From a virus, in IMG/VR virus record IMGVR_UViG_3300031673_000114, positions 1 to 45,262 of that record: a stretch of DNA of 45,262 nt; one strand, written 5' to 3'. Below, piece after piece: positions 1,261-19,573 of this stretch (position 1 is the stretch's first letter; the number at the start of each line of letters is the position of its first letter). A program made the translations under genes and the position numbers. The notes beneath the pieces were generated by a model that saw only the letters and a list, made by a program, of their open reading frames with translations, was not told the DNA's origin and made no database searches.

Positions 1261-1333
1261 GGCGGGATAGAGCAGACGGTAGCTCGCAAGGTTCATAACC
1301 TTGAGGCCGGTGGTTCGATTCCACCTCCCGCTA
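1261..1333 (+). tRNA. tRNA with anticodon CAT (elongator Met or lysidine-dependent Ile2)
   Basis: Hand-folded 73-nt cloverleaf:
- acceptor GGCGGGA/TCCCGCT (G1-U72 wobble);
- D stem GAGC/GCTC;
- anticodon stem CAAGG/CCTTG with loop TTCATAA;
- 5-nt variable loop;
- T arm GGTGG-TTCGATT-CCACC;
- discriminator A, with no encoded CCA.
It lacks the three G-C pairs and the 1-72 mismatch of initiator tRNA. Confidence 0.9.
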
Positions 1334-1357
1334 CTCATCAAACACAAAGGAGAAGGT

Positions 1358-7225: not shown

Positions 7226-8152
7226 ATGTATGTAGAAACAGTTCAGGACTTTCTGGACACTCAAATCCCTCTCGTGGAACTCGACATCAACGCCAAGATA
7301 ACGATGGGAACAAGCGAGGAGGTAGAATATAGACGGGCTTCTATGGCGGGAGACTGTCCCCGTAAACTGGCATTTTTTAAAATCAATGCACCACGCCCCG
7401 TGATGGCAACACGGGGTTCGGCAGTACTTGCAACGGGTTCGTGGATGCACTGGCTTATTATGGAATGGGCACGACGAGGTTATACCTTAAAGGAGCGCCT
7501 GTTTACAATGGTAACGGAAATCGAGGGCGATTTAAGCCAAAAATGTGTCCTGCCATCGGGATATGAACTTAAATCGGTGCATCCCGATCTTCTTGTTAAT
7601 CATCAACAACTCGGTAGGGGGGTTGGCGAGATTAAAACCCTTTCAAACTATGGCTTTCTTGAAATGGTAAATGGCGAAGTAGAATACCGATATCGCGTAC
7701 AGGCCGCAATCAACATGTATGCCTCCAACTCTTCCCATGTATTCTTTTGGCCATATCGGAAGGAGACCTCTAATATCCGTGAAAGAATCTTCTTCGACGG
7801 CGTTCCAGGGTCGGTTAGTAGCTCTTATTACTCTAAAAACGTATCTTTTCTAAACGACGAGCAAAACGTTGCTATTGATGTGGCTAAAATTATTACCGAT
7901 GTCGATAACCTATATCAGGCCATTGACGAAATTACCACCATAGAACAGGTCTTACACGCTTTCCCGGAAGCCTCTAATCCGTTTATATGTACCAACACAA
8001 GATCAAACTGTCGCAAATGCGGAGGAACGGGACAGGTAATTAAACCAGAACTAAAGTTTCCCTGTTCTTACTGTCCATTTATGAATCTGTGTTGGAGGGT
8101 TTCCGAAATGAAAATTGACGAGGGAAGTCCTCATTATTATGTCTCGCGTTGA
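7226..8152 (+). CDS. Cas4/RecB-family PD-(D/E)XK exonuclease with Fe-S cluster cysteines
   Basis: HPDLLV...GEIKT gives the D...ExK motif and YRVQAAINMY gives QxxxY. The N-terminal Cys (GDCPRKL) plus C-terminal CSYCPFMNLC (C-x2-C-x5-C) match the Cas4/AddB four-Cys arrangement. RBS taaggagacattATG. Confidence 0.75.
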   Translation: MYVETVQDFLDTQIPLVELDINAKITMGTSEEVEYRRASMAGDCPRKLAFFKINAPRPVMATRGSAVLATGSWMHWLIMEWARRGYTLKERLFTMVTEIEGDLSQKCVLPSGYELKSVHPDLLVNHQQLGRGVGEIKTLSNYGFLEMVNGEVEYRYRVQAAINMYASNSSHVFFWPYRKETSNIRERIFFDGVPGSVSSSYYSKNVSFLNDEQNVAIDVAKIITDVDNLYQAIDEITTIEQVLHAFPEASNPFICTNTRSNCRKCGGTGQVIKPELKFPCSYCPFMNLCWRVSEMKIDEGSPHYYVSR

Positions 8153-16803: not shown

Positions 16804-17229
16804 ATGAAAGATGTAATCATCCAAACAATTCCACATAGCGAACATCGTTATGAAACGGTTGGAGACTATTTTGACGAGGAAGTATTTATGCCCTCTCCAT
16901 CCGGTACTTATAGTCCCATTCCACGGACGCGGATAGAGGTCTCGGATATGAAGAACCCCGATTACGAATTCCTTGTGGTATTTCACGAACTAATTGAATG
17001 GTATCTTACGCAAAAGCGTGGGATTAAAGAAGAGGATATTACGGTATTTGATATCGGCTTTGAAACCGAGCGCTTAGAGGGTAAACATAAAGATACCGAT
17101 GAACCCGGAGACGATCCCGCCGCTCCCTATTACAAAGAGCATCAATTTGCTACCAAATTAGAGAAAGAAATGGCAACCGAACTTGGCGTGGATTGGGATG
17201 AGTACGATAAGAAAGTTGAAGATATGTAA
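16804..17229 (+). CDS. Hypothetical protein with HELIEW motif
   Basis: RBS aaaaggagttaatATG. Contains VVFHELIEWYL and an acidic C-terminal half. Confidence 0.7.
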   Translation: MKDVIIQTIPHSEHRYETVGDYFDEEVFMPSPSGTYSPIPRTRIEVSDMKNPDYEFLVVFHELIEWYLTQKRGIKEEDITVFDIGFETERLEGKHKDTDEPGDDPAAPYYKEHQFATKLEKEMATELGVDWDEYDKKVEDM

Positions 17230-17295
17230 AATGGTTAGTACGCTTTTAATCGCGCTACTCATGGACAAGCACGCAATTAAAACGGAGAAACAGCC

Positions 17296-17448
17296 ATGAT
17301 TCTCATCGAGGTAATTGCTTATCTCATCCAGATCACCGTCCTCATTCTCTGGTTGACCGGCATCATTCCCGGTGCAATTGAGAAATATAAAAAGTTCAAG
17401 TATGAGATGGATGAAACGCACAACAGGAACCAGGAGGACAAGACGTGA
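17296..17448 (+). CDS. Possible 50-aa single-TM protein
   Basis: Read by hand: MILIEVIAYLIQITVLILWLTGIIPGAIEKYKKFKYEMDETHNRNQEDKT, with GGAG 8 nt upstream. Below the track cutoff. Confidence 0.4.
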   Translation: MILIEVIAYLIQITVLILWLTGIIPGAIEKYKKFKYEMDETHNRNQEDKT

Positions 17449-17549
17449 AAACATCAATCTTTGTAAGAAAAGGAGAGAACGTGCTTCATGTCTCAGAAGC
17501 AGTGGATGAATGGGCGCAGTATGTAAAGATCGACGCCGATAGCGTATAA
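17445..17549 (+). CDS. Possible 34-aa peptide
   Basis: GTGA start/stop overlap with the previous small ORF. AGGAGG lies 8 nt upstream. Confidence 0.3.
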   Translation: MKTSIFVRKGENVLHVSEAVDEWAQYVKIDADSV

Positions 17550-17935
17550 CGGACGGAACAATGTCGTCCCGCTTCGGGATGAAGCCTTGCGTCATTGTTC
17601 CAGTGTTAGGCGCAGTGAGTTTTGGTTGCGGTTGCCGACAAGGTTGCCTGTGGGTCTTGAGCGGATGTCCACAGCGTTTGTGAGTGCGCGCTCAACGAAC
17701 GCCCTGAATGCTCGGCGGCCAGTCACTTCCGGGATAAGCTCCGGTAAACATGATCCGTCATCCGGCAACCGCAACTATAATTTCAACGCATGGCGACCTA
17801 ACGTGAGACAGAAAAAAGTCGTCGCTTCGATGAACGTTTCGGTCTTTGTTTTGCATGTTAGTTGCTTTGCGCTTGCCGAAGTCCGTCCATGGACGGCGGA
17901 CAAGGCAGAATTAAAATGTCCATAGAAAAGAGGAA
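17550..17935 (+). ncRNA. Candidate structured non-coding RNA or long structured 5' leader (class unknown)
   Basis: No ORF here has an RBS. My hand count gives about 55-57% G+C over 17601-17800, against about 41-46% in sampled coding stretches.
Supporting helices:
- 13-bp long-range helix 17624-17636 / 17764-17776;
- 9-bp helix 17555-17563 / 17593-17601 enclosing hairpin 17567-17579;
- hairpin 17674-17702;
- further hairpins (see finding).
The G-U pairs fit only the plus-strand transcript. Confidence 0.35.
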
Positions 17936-17938
17936 GAT

Positions 17939-18157
17939 ATGTACGGCAAACGGTATCGTTGTAATACCTGTGGTAGTGAAACTACATCTCAAGAGGGACT
18001 GAACGACCCCTCTGGCTCTCAAGTGATGGGCAGTTGCGTATGCGGTGGTACGTATAGCTTCATCGGAGAAGAGTACGACCAAGACTTCATTGATCAGCAA
18101 AACTATGAACGCCAACAAGACAGAGAATATGAAGAACGTCACCGTAGGGATTACTAA
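17939..18157 (+). CDS. Hypothetical zinc-ribbon protein (72 aa)
   Basis: RBS aaaagaggaagatATG. CNTCGS...CVCGG followed by an acidic tail. Confidence 0.7.
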   Translation: MYGKRYRCNTCGSETTSQEGLNDPSGSQVMGSCVCGGTYSFIGEEYDQDFIDQQNYERQQDREYEERHRRDY

Positions 18158-18164
18158 ATATCAC

Positions 18165-18186
18165 GCGGCTCCATGGAAGGAGCCGC
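18165..18186. terminator. Hairpin at the convergence point of the two arms (candidate bidirectional terminator)
   Basis: gcggctcc-atggaa-ggagccgc, a perfect 8-bp GC-rich stem between the stops at 18157 (+) and 18221 (-). Flanking U-tracts are poor. Confidence 0.5.
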
Positions 18187-18220
18187 ACTTGACACCGCGC
18201 ATTTTGTCTAACAGACGTGA

Positions 18221-19573
18221 TTACGTTGTGGGACTCAGTACTTGTTGGACAAGGGGTTGTCCCATCCTTTCAAGGGTTGCCCTCCCAATATCCTTTCGAT
18301 AAAATCCCTTTGAACTTGGAATAATCCGTTCTAATATTCGCAGTGCCTTGGTATTTGCTAAGGATATATCCTTATCTTTTCCCGTAATTGTTAGGGCATA
18401 TCCGAATGAAGAGGCTATTCCAATCTGATTAGTGTAATCCCCAAGAGTCATCTTCTTAACTTCCGAGTAATGCACATGTTTCATATCCTCGGGGGTTAAT
18501 CGGGAAAAATCTATAATCTCGTTATAGAAAGACTCCTTAACGTTGTTGACGGTTTCATAGGGAAACGTCGGAAAGGCAAGCGTCAGGACGATACCCTTGT
18601 TGTCTGTATCGAACATATATCCATCGGTATATCCGGTCGCCAAACGGGACATAAAGGAGCCAAAGGGGACATTGAGAAGTTCTAAATATAGATCACTTAT
18701 AGGATATCCGAAGCGTAGGGTGTGTTCTAAGAGATAAATACCATTCGTATTTACAATACAATTAGCATCTACACATCCAACATAGCGGGTTTTTGCAAGA
18801 ATAGGGGTCAGAGGATGAACCATTTCAAGAAACATCCTGTTCAGTCCAAGCTGGAAGTACATCCCTGTTCCCATTTCACCTGTGCTCAGACCGTGCCCAC
18901 CATCCAAAAGCGCCTTATTCTCGAAGTTGATTTCTGTTAGAATCTGGCCATCCTGTCTAATCCAATCGGCCCCATTAAACCATCCCGCTATGGCTACCTC
19001 GTATCCCTCGATGTAATCTTGCACCACAATCTGACCATCCAAGGAATGTTGATACTTGCCTTTAATAGTCAAGAGATGCTTAATTAAATCTTCAGAATCA
19101 TCACGAGAAGCCTTCCAATTTAATGTTTTGGGAAGATTGTCCGTCTGCTTCACAATGTATTTGCGAGGACGCCCCTTGATGTACTTAATGGTGTCATCAA
19201 TAGATTTAACCTCGATAGAAGTTGGTACTCGAATACCAAGTTTCTTGGCAAGTTGAGTTCCCCAGATACGGTCTTTTTCTAATCTATCTCCCACCTCGTT
19301 AGAACCCACCACGCGATAACCGTTCTTACGCATTGCGCTTTGCAACGTTCCAAACTCCGATCCATCAAATATAAAGATGGCATCAATGTTACGCTTGATG
19401 AAATCTTTAAGGGGAGTCGAACTTGCATAGAATCGCTTAATATTTGGAAAGCCAGTCAGTACCTCGTTGAAGTACCTGTCCTTATTCCAAACATAGACGG
19501 TATTGCCCTCTTCTTCAAGTCGGTAGGCAAACCCCGCACATTCCATTGAACCGGAAATAATACAGAATTTCAT
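18221..19573 (-). CDS. PurD-like (glycinamide ribonucleotide synthetase family) ATP-grasp ligase
   Basis: Colinear by eye with E. coli PurD:
- MKFCIISGSMECAGFAYRL vs MKVLVIGNGGREHALAWK;
- GSNEVGDRLEKDRIWGTQLAKKLGIRVP vs GPTAGAAQLEGSKAFTKDFLARHKIP;
- VVQDYIEGYEVAI vs VIEEFLDGEEASF;
- STGEMGTG vs NTGGMGAY;
- LLEHTLRFGYP vs VIEFNCRFGDP;
- C-terminal FYRKDIG vs FCRKDIG. Confidence 0.75.
   Translation of the reverse strand: MKFCIISGSMECAGFAYRLEEEGNTVYVWNKDRYFNEVLTGFPNIKRFYASSTPLKDFIKRNIDAIFIFDGSEFGTLQSAMRKNGYRVVGSNEVGDRLEKDRIWGTQLAKKLGIRVPTSIEVKSIDDTIKYIKGRPRKYIVKQTDNLPKTLNWKASRDDSEDLIKHLLTIKGKYQHSLDGQIVVQDYIEGYEVAIAGWFNGADWIRQDGQILTEINFENKALLDGGHGLSTGEMGTGMYFQLGLNRMFLEMVHPLTPILAKTRYVGCVDANCIVNTNGIYLLEHTLRFGYPISDLYLELLNVPFGSFMSRLATGYTDGYMFDTDNKGIVLTLAFPTFPYETVNNVKESFYNEIIDFSRLTPEDMKHVHYSEVKKMTLGDYTNQIGIASSFGYALTITGKDKDISLANTKALRILERIIPSSKGFYRKDIGRATLERMGQPLVQQVLSPTT

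What the first reader, a model, noticed from the sequence alone, without database searches (positions are those of the whole stretch)
17550..17935. About 390-bp GC-rich, ORF-poor, extensively base-paired segment: candidate novel structured RNA (or origin-like DNA element)
Seen in the sequence:
- In a genome otherwise packed with genes carrying strong AAGGAG sites, this stretch has no RBS-preceded ORF.
- It is compositionally distinct. My hand count is 57/100 and 55/100 G+C for 17601-17700 and 17701-17800, against 41-46% in sampled coding regions.
- A 13-bp long-range helix joins 17624-17636 (GGTTGCGGTTGCC) and 17764-17776. That is far beyond chance for a 400-nt window.

Within and around that helix:
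- 17663-17667 pairs with 17759-17763.
- A bulged hairpin spans 17674-17702.
- A 9-bp helix 17555-17563 / 17593-17601 caps a CUUCG-type hairpin at 17567-17579.
- Further hairpins lie at 17819-17833, 17838-17842 / 17876-17880 and 17883-17896.
- Several G-U pairs (17624-17776, 17679-17697, 17821-17831) work only in the plus-strand transcript.

Inference: this is a structured RNA, or a long regulatory leader for the zinc-ribbon gene at 17939.

Alternatives I cannot exclude:
- GGTTGC(C) occurs three times directly and in inverted copies. This could be a protein-binding, origin-like or packaging DNA element.
- A 40-aa, six-Cys ORF (17561-17683, MSSRFGMKPCVIVPVLGAVSFGCGCRQGCLWVLSGCPQRL) with only a weak RBS overlaps the 5' part.
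Basis: partly seen in the sequence, partly recalled or inferred. Interest (0 to 1): 0.65.

Follow-up and report, generated by a model that had tools for sequence, protein, structure and literature searches.

The report
Integron attC cassettes inside a phage
The GC-rich, hairpin-filled gap is not a new RNA gene but the non-coding part of two integron-type gene cassettes, each carrying a folded attC recombination site, that were recently inserted into this phage genome; this kind of element has already been reported in phages.

Summary

The RNA reading does not hold. Window 17550-18211 (662 nt) is an insertion. Phage variants with 99-99.5% identical flanks join A17549 directly to C18212.

The insert holds two copies (17544-17611 and 17796-17863) of a roughly 68-nt imperfect palindrome with these properties:
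- It recurs in a second phage and in chromosomes of Kryptoniota and "Bacteroidetes" MAGs. One 8-kb stretch carries ten copies in a same-strand [ORF-repeat]n array.
- Fifteen copies show strong covariation: 93% of cells paired, and 16 of 26 pairs changed on both sides.
- Its ends match the attC consensus RYYYAAC...GTTRRRY.
- Lengths are 68-134 nt.
- The extra unpaired bases lie on the 3' arm.
- All three observed breakpoints fall between A and C of the AAC triplet, which is the integron crossover point.

The region therefore consists of an ORF-less cassette A (17550-17801) and the attC plus leader of the zinc-ribbon cassette B (17802-18211). This is a cluster of attC sites without an integrase (CALIN).

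The interior of cassette A folds no better than shuffled sequence, and its 13-bp inverted repeat remains unexplained. No integrase was found in any sequence held. Clusters of attC sites in phages are already published, so this is a new member of a known kind.

The parts
17550..18211 (.). A 662-nt insertion (two cassettes) relative to sister phage variants. The junctions are A17549|C17550 and A18211|C18212.
   Evidence: L007 and L008 read ...GATAGCGTATAA|CAGACGTGATTACG... The flanks are 99% (95 nt) and 99.5% (1500 nt) identical to the window.
17544..17611 (+). attC_1, with the bottom (folding) strand on the window + strand. Parts: R' box GTATAA|C 17544-50; spacer 17551-54; L' arm 17555-63; apical hairpin (VTS) 17565-81; extrahelical segment 17582-92; L'' arm 17593-601; R'' box GTTAGGC 17605-11.
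   Evidence: Covariance-model hits of 69.4 bits (R1) and 58 bits (R2) on the + strand, against 17-22 bits on the - strand. Covariation.
17550..17801 (-). Cassette A (252 nt, 56% G+C). It consists of attC_1 plus a 184-nt ORF-less interior, and ends in ACCTAA.
   Evidence: The boundaries are defined by the AA|C points of attC_1 and attC_2. There is no RBS-preceded ORF. The - strand 60-aa ORF has no true homologue.
17612..17795 (.). Interior of cassette A: GC-rich filler with no homologue found. The core 17638-17762 is not unusually structured.
   Evidence: z = -0.07 on the + strand and +0.49 on the - strand. There is no match in any locus held or in the phage, plasmid or E. coli collections.
17625..17637 (.). 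Left arm of the 13-nt perfect inverted repeat (GTTGCGGTTGCCG). It lies within three direct GGTTGC(C) copies at 17624-17649.
17763..17775 (.). Right arm of the inverted repeat (CGGCAACCGCAAC). It is also 11/12 complementary to 17867-78 in the leader of cassette B.
   Evidence: pairs I2 and I5.
17796..17863 (+). attC_2, with the bottom strand on +. Parts: R' ACCTAA|C 17796-802; L' arm 17809-18; apical hairpin 17820-32; extrahelical segment 17833-43; L'' arm 17844-53; R'' GTTAGTT 17857-63.
   Evidence: Covariance-model hits of 84.3 bits (R1) and 49.8 bits (R2). Homology between L002 and the window begins exactly at this AA|C.
17802..18211 (.). Cassette B (410 nt, 47% G+C): attC_2, leader, zinc-ribbon gene and terminator. 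It ends in GTCTAA.
   Evidence: The same cassette sits behind a different upstream gene in L002.
17864..17938 (+). Leader of the zinc-ribbon gene, with the palindromic hairpin around 17881-17901 and the RBS GAGGA at 17930.
   Evidence: Fold z = -2.2. It is 82% identical to L002, with indels. RBS.
17939..18157 (+). 72-aa zinc-ribbon ORF, the cargo of cassette B. It runs in the direction of the attC bottom strand, which is the reverse of the usual cassette orientation.
   Evidence: No homologue other than itself.
18163..18188 (.). G+C-rich hairpin terminator carried by cassette B, lying between the convergent early and late gene blocks.
17445..17549 (+). 34-aa remnant ORF. Its TAA stop (17547-49) is the target-derived part of the R' box. 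It is the tail of a 75-aa gene in variant L007.

Best explanation
Window 17550-17935 is the non-coding 5' part of a 662-nt block of two integron-type gene cassettes (17550-18211). The block was inserted into the phage genome at a G|TT secondary (attG-like) site, read on the minus strand.

Each cassette carries an attC recombination site whose bottom strand lies on the window + strand:
- attC_1: 17544-17611
- attC_2: 17796-17863

How it works. These steps are taken from what is established for integrons and were not shown here:
- The bottom strand folds as single-stranded DNA into a hairpin made of an R stem, an unpaired spacer, an L stem, a variable apical stem-loop, and extra unpaired bases on the 3' arm.
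- A host integron integrase (a tyrosine recombinase) binds the hairpin and cuts between A and C of the AAC triplet.
- It then joins the cassette to another attC or to a GTT-containing site.

Contents of the two cassettes:
- Cassette A (17550-17801) has no ORF.
- Cassette B (17802-18211) carries a 72-aa zinc-ribbon gene with its own leader and terminator.

The phage encodes no detectable integrase, so the pair is a cluster of attC sites lacking an integrase (CALIN). The attC type matches chromosomal cassette arrays of Kryptoniota and related FCB-group MAGs, which points to the donor and probably to the host lineage.
For: Shown here:

1. Presence/absence polymorphism. L007 and L008 have flanks 99-99.5% identical to the window and join A17549 to C18212 directly.

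2. Repeated element. The two roughly 68-nt elements are homologous to each other. The local alignment scores 34 against 16.1 +/- 2.3 for shuffles, with 0 of 2000 shuffles as high. They are also homologous to copies elsewhere:
- in L002;
- in a second phage, at three sites;
- in bacterial MAG chromosomes.

3. Covariation.
- On 15 copies with a three-helix structure: 93% of cells are paired, 16 of 26 pairs change on both sides, 0 of 500 shuffles reach the observed values, and slid controls pair at most 53%.
- Six-copy set.

4. Array. L015 carries ten copies in 8 kb on one strand. Each follows a single + strand ORF with short spacers, and one ORF is a glyoxalase-family protein.

5. attC anatomy.
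- The consensus ends are GCCTAAC ... GTTAGGC, that is RYYYAAC / GTTRRRY.
- Lengths are 68-134 nt.
- An unpaired spacer lies between the R and L stems.
- The apical stem-loop is variable.
- The extra unpaired bases (11-33 nt) lie on the 3' (L'') arm of the strand that carries 5'-AAC.

6. Breakpoints.
- All three observed breakpoints lie between A and C of AAC: the left and right ends of the insertion, and the window/L002 junction.
- This is the crossover point described for attC bottom strands in PMC5027507.
- Read on the top strand, both cassettes begin with TTRRRY (TTAGGT and TTAGAC).

7. Strand. A G.U/G.T pair is invariant in 15 of 15 copies, which fixes the folding strand. That strand is antisense to the neighbouring gene in 13 of 13 bacterial copies. 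This fits a DNA site and not an mRNA element.

8. Precedent. Clusters of attC sites without an integrase have been found in 17 phages and shown to recombine with IntI1 (PMC9892861). Cassette insertion at genomic attG sites is reported by Loot 2024, as cited in PMC12614218.
Against: - No integron integrase was seen in the window (Pfam) or in any locus held. The DNA upstream of the L015 array could not be fetched.
- No dedicated attC detector (IntegronFinder, HattCI) was available, and no Rfam family matched.
- The extrahelical part is one large 11-33-nt internal loop, not the usual two or three single bases. The L stems are unusually A/T-tract-rich and conserved in sequence.
- Single copies occur next to housekeeping genes (L013, L014, L017), as a REP- or MITE-like element would.
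- In all five phage-borne cases the neighbouring ORF runs with the attC bottom strand, the reverse of the canonical cassette orientation.
- Recombination itself was not observed. It is inferred from junction sequences only.
Confidence: 0.8

Rival explanations
1. The repeat is a REP- or MITE-like palindromic element of FCB-group bacteria and their phages. It is spread by a transposase or by recombination and sits at gene 3' ends, perhaps acting as a terminator. It has nothing to do with integron integrases.
For: - Single copies lie between housekeeping or convergent genes in L013, L014 and L017.
- No integrase was seen in any locus held.
- The sequence is highly conserved and the stem is rich in A-tract/U-tract.
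- One L015 copy scores as terminator-like on the gene-sense strand.
Against: - Ten copies lie in 8 kb in a one-ORF-per-repeat, one-orientation array.
- The ends match RYYYAAC / GTTRRRY.
- The phage insertion is two units plus cargo, not a single unit. Its right end is not a unit end, yet it still breaks at AA|C.
- There is no target-site duplication beyond the shared TAAC.
Confidence: 0.08
2. The region is transcribed as a structured non-coding RNA or a long regulatory 5' leader of the zinc-ribbon gene, and the hairpins act at the RNA level (processing, stability, attenuation).
For: - The + strand folds better than the - strand, and z = -4.4.
- The invariant G.U pair exists only on the + strand.
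- In the phages the hairpins are co-oriented with the genes, so they would be present in the mRNA.
- The 13-bp helix is far beyond chance.
Against: - No Rfam match.
- The interior has z = -0.07.
- The region is a composite of two repeat copies plus filler.
- It is absent from 99%-identical variants.
- The folding strand is antisense to genes in 13 of 13 bacterial copies.
- No homologue of the interior was found, so no covariation can support it.
Confidence: 0.07
3. The repeats are phage-intrinsic regulatory cassettes, like the promoter-early stem-loops (PeSL) of T4-type phages. They shuffle small genes by homologous recombination between repeat copies.
For: - The repeated intergenic hairpins bound an indel in a region that varies between close phage variants, and contigs break there.
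- Copies occur in a second phage with unrelated genes.
Against: - The same element forms arrays in bacterial chromosomes.
- No conserved promoter hexamers accompany it.
- The breakpoints are at one precise dinucleotide rather than spread through the repeat.
Confidence: 0.03
4. The GGTTGC(C) repeats and inverted copies form a replication origin or packaging site.
For: Three direct GGTTGC(C) copies lie at 17624-17649, with an inverted copy at 17764-17775.
Against: - The whole segment is missing from otherwise 99%-identical phage variants, so it cannot be an essential cis site.
- There is no adjacent A+T-rich unwinding region.
- It lies inside a cassette bounded by attC crossover points.
Confidence: 0.02

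Closest known systems
Integron attC sites and gene cassettes; clusters of attC sites lacking an integrase (CALIN), including those reported in phage genomes (Qi et al. 2023, PMC9892861)
   Same: - An imperfect palindrome of 68-134 nt with RYYYAAC / GTTRRRY ends, an unpaired spacer, a second stem and a variable apical structure.
- Extra unpaired bases on the L'' side of the AAC-bearing strand.
- Same-orientation [ORF-attC]n arrays in chromosomes.
- Breakpoints between A and C of AAC.
- Carried by a phage without an integrase.
- Within-taxon conservation of the attC type (PMC8352920).
   Different: - No integrase or attI was seen in any locus held.
- There is one large 11-33-nt internal loop instead of two or three single extrahelical bases.
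- The L stems are conserved A-tract/T-tract.
- The phage-borne cargo ORFs run with the bottom strand (reverse orientation).
- One cassette is ORF-less.
- The family comes from Kryptoniota/FCB-group MAGs and is not among the taxa modelled in PMC8352920.
Cassette insertion at secondary or attG genomic sites (Loot et al. 2024, cited in PMC12614218)
   Same: - The insertion lies outside an attI, at a bare G|TT site. The empty site reads CACGTCTG|TTATACGC on the minus strand.
- The hybrid R box left behind (GTATAA|C) takes its 5' part from the target.
   Different: The target is a phage genome, at the stop codon of a small gene between convergent operons. The event is inferred from natural variants and not from an assay.
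PeSL (promoter-early stem-loop) cassettes of T4-type phages
   Same: Repeated intergenic hairpin motifs bound small-gene indels between near-identical phages.
   Different: PeSLs carry an early promoter and recombine by homology. Here there is no conserved promoter, the element is shared with bacterial chromosomal arrays, and the breakpoints sit at a single dinucleotide.
REP/BIME and MITE-type palindromic repeats
   Same: A conserved extragenic palindrome at gene 3' ends, sometimes as single copies.
   Different: It forms a one-per-ORF unidirectional array, has attC-type end boxes, and moves together with cargo.

Membership tests
Integron attC site / gene cassette | Inverse core and core boxes RYYYAAC and GTTRRRY at the two ends, able to pair with each other | tested here: met
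   The consensus of 15 copies is GCCTAAC ... GTTAGGC. AAC and GTT are invariant or nearly so, and the R helix is 84% paired. In the window the boxes are GTATAAC/GTTAGGC and ACCTAAC/GTTAGTT.
Integron attC site / gene cassette | A folded hairpin with a second (L) stem, an unpaired central spacer and a variable terminal structure, kept by structure rather than by sequence | tested here: met
   The three-helix model gives 93% paired cells, 16 of 26 pairs with changes on both sides and 0 of 500 shuffles as high. The L helix is 95.7% paired and the apical helix 98.1%. The apical part varies from 7 to about 50 nt.
Integron attC site / gene cassette | Extrahelical bases on the L'' arm of the bottom strand (two or three single bases in the studied sites) | tested here: inconclusive
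   The unpaired surplus is on the correct (3', L'') arm of the AAC-bearing strand. However, it is one 11-33-nt internal loop plus a single T on the 5' arm, not two or three isolated bases (definition from PMC5027507).
Integron attC site / gene cassette | Crossover between A and C of the AAC triplet of the bottom-strand R' box (G|TT on the top strand) | tested here: met
   Three independent junctions fall there: A17549|C17550, A18211|C18212 and the window/L002 breakpoint at A17801|C17802. Because TAAC is shared at the junctions, the resolution is 4 nt.
Integron attC site / gene cassette | Length within the known range of attC sites (about 57-141 nt; the range is from my own knowledge) | tested here: met
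   68 nt in the window, 68-96 nt in the second phage and 94-134 nt in the MAGs.
Integron attC site / gene cassette | Arrays of single-ORF cassettes, each followed by an attC, all in one orientation | tested here: met
   In L015, ten sites lie in 8 kb on one strand, each after one + strand ORF, with spacers of -11 to 182 nt.
Integron attC site / gene cassette | Association with an integron integrase (intI) and attI, or demonstrated recombination by one | not testable with these tools
   There is no recombinase in the window. The loci from the MAGs are 8-kb excerpts and the array runs off both ends. No assay was possible.
Integron attC site / gene cassette | Cargo ORF reads toward the attC on the top strand (the usual case; not obligatory) | tested here: not met
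   This is met in 13 of 13 bacterial copies. In the phages the ORFs (zinc ribbon 17939-18157, the L002 upstream gene and three genes of the second phage) run with the bottom strand.
Any curated structured RNA family (Rfam 15) | Covariance-model match at or near the gathering score | tested here: not met
   Only the tRNA at 1261-1333 passes. In 17300-18300 the best E-values are 1.8-5, far below threshold. tmRNA was excluded by ARAGORN.
Intrinsic terminator | G+C-rich hairpin immediately followed by a U tract on the transcribed strand | tested here: not met
   No terminator-like site lies in 17550-17935 on either strand. The only one is at 18163-18188. In the units the U-rich run is the 3' arm of the stem and is 11 nt or more from the apical hairpin.
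MITE / IS-derived repeat | A single unit inserted with a target-site duplication and terminal inverted repeats at both ends of the insertion | tested here: not met
   The insertion is 662 nt with two units and cargo. Its right end (GCATTTTGTCTAA) is not a unit end.

The most novel reading that the evidence does not exclude
Phages of Kryptoniota/FCB-group bacteria may use host-integron attC sites as their own module boundaries. Under this reading:
- Genes are swapped between phages, and between phage and host, at the AA|C point.
- The attC bottom strand is always co-oriented with the phage genes, so the hairpin is also transcribed. It may have been co-opted as an RNA processing or stability element.
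- The ORF-less, GC-rich cassette A, closed by a 13-bp helix, would be a cassette-borne non-coding RNA.
Probability: 0.12. Interest if true: 0.7.

Novelty: new member of a known kind. Interest (0 to 1): 0.45.

Why it matters
- It explains a candidate "novel RNA" as a known kind of DNA recombination site.
- It gives natural filled-site and empty-site evidence, between near-identical phage variants, that integron cassettes enter phage genomes at a bare G|TT site. That supports phages as vehicles for cassette traffic.
- It defines a previously unmodelled attC family of uncultured Kryptoniota/FCB bacteria. This links two otherwise unplaceable phages to a host lineage.
- It raises a testable oddity: in all five phage-borne cases examined, the neighbouring ORF is reversed relative to its attC.

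Tried and rejected
Searches that found nothing useful:
- Rfam at gathering and permissive thresholds, and ARAGORN: nothing in the region.
- blastn of the region against phage, plasmid and E. coli collections: no match.
- blastn of a bacterial attC against phages and plasmids: only chance hits.
- IMG/VR scans with DNA patterns and back-translated ORFs: nothing, or chance A+T-rich hits that the covariance model rejects.

Protein routes:
- The zinc-ribbon protein has no homologue but itself.
- ATP-grasp neighbours at under 50% identity sit in phages with a different gene order and were useless for this locus.

Coding readings rejected:
- The + strand 112-aa and 40-aa (six-Cys) ORFs have no RBS.
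- The 40-aa ORF overlaps attC_1.
- The ORF that is open in both the window and L002 shifts frame between two indels, and only 3 of about 10 differing codons are synonymous (my own codon-by-codon reading of the sequences).
- The - strand 60-aa ORF of cassette A hits only repeat proteins by composition.

Other ideas dropped:
- A local tandem duplication as the whole story. Unit 1 is 54% G+C and unit 2 is 42%, and both belong to a family found elsewhere.
- RNase III-type processing sites or terminators as the primary role, once the bacterial copies proved antisense to their genes.
- The 13-bp repeat as a relic of an inverted attC end. GGCAACCGCAACTA resembles the top-strand flank GGCAACTGCAACTAAC of L013 and L014, but only over about 14 nt, so this is unresolved.

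Full report
**Setting**

The window is a tailed-phage genome.
- It encodes a terminase large subunit, a portal protein and a major head protein, plus a DnaB helicase and a Dam methylase.
- Early genes lie on the + strand up to 18157. Late genes lie on the - strand from 18221.
- The finding sits at the end of the + block, just before the point where the two blocks converge.

**Observation check**

- G+C is 57/100 and 55/100 in the two sampled hundreds, against 45.5% for the genome.
- The only Shine-Dalgarno-preceded start codon in 17500-18000, on either strand, is the zinc-ribbon ATG at 17939.
- The long-range helix is a 13-nt perfect inverted repeat. None of 300 dinucleotide shuffles gave one of 12 nt or more.
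- The smaller helices are present as stated.
- The + strand folds at -152.9 kcal/mol (z = -4.4). The - strand folds at -129.8 (z = -3.6).
- Rfam and ARAGORN find nothing in the region.

**The region is an insertion**

The zinc-ribbon protein has no homologue except itself, but exact look-ups found sister contigs.
- L001 is identical to the window.
- In L002, homology to the window starts abruptly at ...AA|CGTGAGACAG (window 17802). A different gene lies upstream.
- Cluster members of neighbouring proteins led to variants from three other samples.
- In L007 and L008 the small gene that ends at window 17549 is followed directly by window 18212 onward...GATAGCGTATAA|CAGACGTGATTACG. The flanks are 99% and 99.5% identical to the window.
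- So 17550-18211 (662 nt) is present in some near-identical phages and absent in others. The finding is the first 386 nt of that block.

**The region is a composite**

- Direct repeats at a constant offset of about 250 nt showed that 17546-17610 and 17798-17862 are diverged copies of one element.
- Their local alignment scores 34, against 16.1 +/- 2.3 for shuffles. None of 2000 shuffles and none of 591 other genome windows scored as high.
- Each copy is a long imperfect hairpin. Between the two window copies and L002 there are compensatory changes in the stems.
- A covariance model built from these three copies finds no further copy in the window.

**The element occurs elsewhere**

- A degenerate pattern scan of metagenome contigs found a second phage (L011/L012). 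Its genes are unrelated, and it has three copies between successive same-strand genes. The model detected the two copies it had not been trained on at E = 4e-12 and 1.4e-5.
- A scan of one genome per species found the element in MAGs of Candidatus Kryptoniota and "uncultured Bacteroidetes".
- With a model built from 15 copies, one 8-kb stretch (L015) holds ten copies on one strand. Each lies just downstream of a single + strand ORF, including a glyoxalase-family protein.

**Structure and strand**

- On the 15-copy alignment, a three-helix structure is 93% paired. Sixteen of 26 pairs change on both sides, no shuffle in 500 reaches the observed values, and slid controls pair at most 53%.
- One G.U (G.T) pair is invariant in all 15 copies. 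This fixes the folding strand, which is the window + strand.
- In 13 of 13 bacterial copies that strand is antisense to the adjacent gene. This argues against an mRNA element and for a DNA site.

**Identification as attC**

On the folding strand the element reads, from 5' to 3':
- RYYYAA|C (consensus GCCTAAC);
- a 4-6-nt unpaired spacer;
- a 9-11-bp stem;
- a variable apical stem-loop;
- an 11-33-nt unpaired segment on the 3' arm;
- the return arm of the stem;
- GTTRRRY (consensus GTTAGGC).

Total length is 68-134 nt. This is the anatomy of the bottom strand of an integron attC site: R'/R'' boxes, unpaired central spacer, L boxes, variable terminal structure, and extrahelical bases near L''. 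The cut in such sites lies between A and C of the only conserved triplet, AAC (PMC5027507).

The breakpoints agree:
- All three breakpoints seen here fall at that dinucleotide, within the 4-nt ambiguity of the shared TAAC: 17549|17550, 18211|18212 and the window/L002 junction at 17801|17802.
- Read on the top (minus) strand, the insertion is CACGTCTG|TTAGAC...cassette B...CACG|TTAGGT...cassette A...GTCCG|TTATACGC.
- Both cassettes therefore begin with TTRRRY. The empty site is a bare G|TT site of the kind described as a secondary or attG site (Loot 2024, cited in PMC12614218).

The one-ORF-per-repeat array in L015 is the classical cassette array. Conservation of the attC type within a taxon is documented (PMC8352920). 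Clusters of attC sites without an integrase have been reported in 17 phages and shown to recombine with IntI1 (PMC9892861).

**What the finding's pieces are**

- 17544-17611 is attC_1.
- 17796-17863 is attC_2.
- 17864-17938 is the leader of the zinc-ribbon gene, with a palindromic hairpin (z = -2.2).
- 17612-17795 is the interior of an ORF-less cassette A.

**Cassette A interior**

- Apart from the 13-bp inverted repeat that brackets it, the interior is no more structured than shuffled sequence (z = -0.07).
- It has no homologue in any collection or locus searched.
- Its only top-strand ORF (60 aa) has no real relatives.
- The origin of the 13-bp repeat and of the GGTTGC(C) repeats is not resolved.

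**Mechanism: shown and inferred**

Shown:
- the insertion polymorphism;
- the repeat family and its covariation;
- the end boxes;
- the bacterial array;
- the breakpoint positions;
- the absence of a recombinase gene in the phage.

Inferred from established integron biology:
- the bottom strand folds as single-stranded DNA and is bound and cut by a host integron integrase;
- the two cassettes entered by attC x G|TT recombination;
- the donor and host lineage is Kryptoniota/FCB-group.

Speculative:
- Cassette B also supplies the only hairpin terminator between the convergent early and late blocks. In the empty-site variants the two stop codons are 11 nt apart.
- The phage copies are all oriented with the bottom strand in the mRNA. 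One possible reason is that the top-strand orientation places the apical hairpin next to a U run.

**Caveats**

- No integrase or attI was seen, and no dedicated attC caller was available.
- The extrahelical part is a large loop rather than isolated bases.
- Single copies occur among housekeeping genes.
- The cargo ORFs in the phages are reversed relative to the attC. This is unusual and unexplained.
- A REP- or MITE-like element unrelated to integrons is the main rival (about 0.08).

**Verdict**

- The "novel structured RNA" interpretation is not supported as stated.
- The structures are attC recombination sites of two integron-type cassettes carried by a phage, which makes this a new member of a known kind.
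- The residual novelty lies in four things: the natural filled and empty sites in a phage, the new attC family from uncultured FCB bacteria, the reverse gene orientation, and the ORF-less cassette.

Noticed in passing
window 17229-17550; L005, L006, L007, L009: The small-gene stretch upstream of the insertion also differs between near-identical variants. The window's 34-aa ORF (17445-17549) is the C-terminal 29 aa of a 75-aa gene in L007. The 50-aa gene region is replaced by a different sequence in L006 and L009. Contigs from three samples all break in this area.
   Followed up: partly
L007 4773-4740 (read on the - strand): The variant contig ends with TTTGTTAGGCGCC..., which is the 3' box of another attC-like unit, upstream of the 75-aa gene. 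The sister phages probably carry a further attC that the window has lost.
   Followed up: no
window 17864-18211 versus L002 354-686: Divergence between the two copies of cassette B is uneven. The attC and leader are about 80-82% identical with indels, while the ORF and terminator differ at one synonymous site. This suggests a further recombination point near GTCCATAG (about 17918-17925).
   Followed up: no
window 17939-18157; L012 1502-2278, 2409-2669 and 2818-3003; L002 2-271: All ORFs next to phage-borne attC sites run with the attC bottom strand. All 13 bacterial copies have the ORF on the top strand.
   Followed up: partly
L012 480-660: In the second phage the terminase large subunit appears split. 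An ATPase-like ORF ends at about 596 and a nuclease-like ORF starts at about 650, with a G+C-rich inverted repeat between them. This could be a frameshift, an intron or an assembly error.
   Followed up: no
L016 and L018 (JAMCXB010000011.1, 106 kb): The second phage's sequence (L011/L012) is contained in a contig binned as a Bacteroidetes MAG. It is either a prophage or a binning artefact. This would bear on host assignment.
   Followed up: no
window 18221-19573 (-): The last gene of the late block is an ATP-grasp protein of the phosphoribosylglycinamide-synthetase family. Its closest relatives (40-49% identity) are in other phage-like contigs, and more distant ones in CPR bacteria and DPANN archaea.
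   Followed up: partly
window 1261-1334: A tRNA-Met (CAT) gene, 67.7 bits.
   Followed up: no
window 7226-8152: A 308-aa protein with weak matches to Cas4-like and RecE-like exonuclease phage families. It is probably a phage recombination nuclease.
   Followed up: no
L017 6198-6298: A sub-threshold Rfam hit to a Clostridioides sRNA family (37.5 bits against a gathering score of 65.2, E = 0.01). It lies in A/G-rich coding sequence and is probably chance.
   Followed up: no
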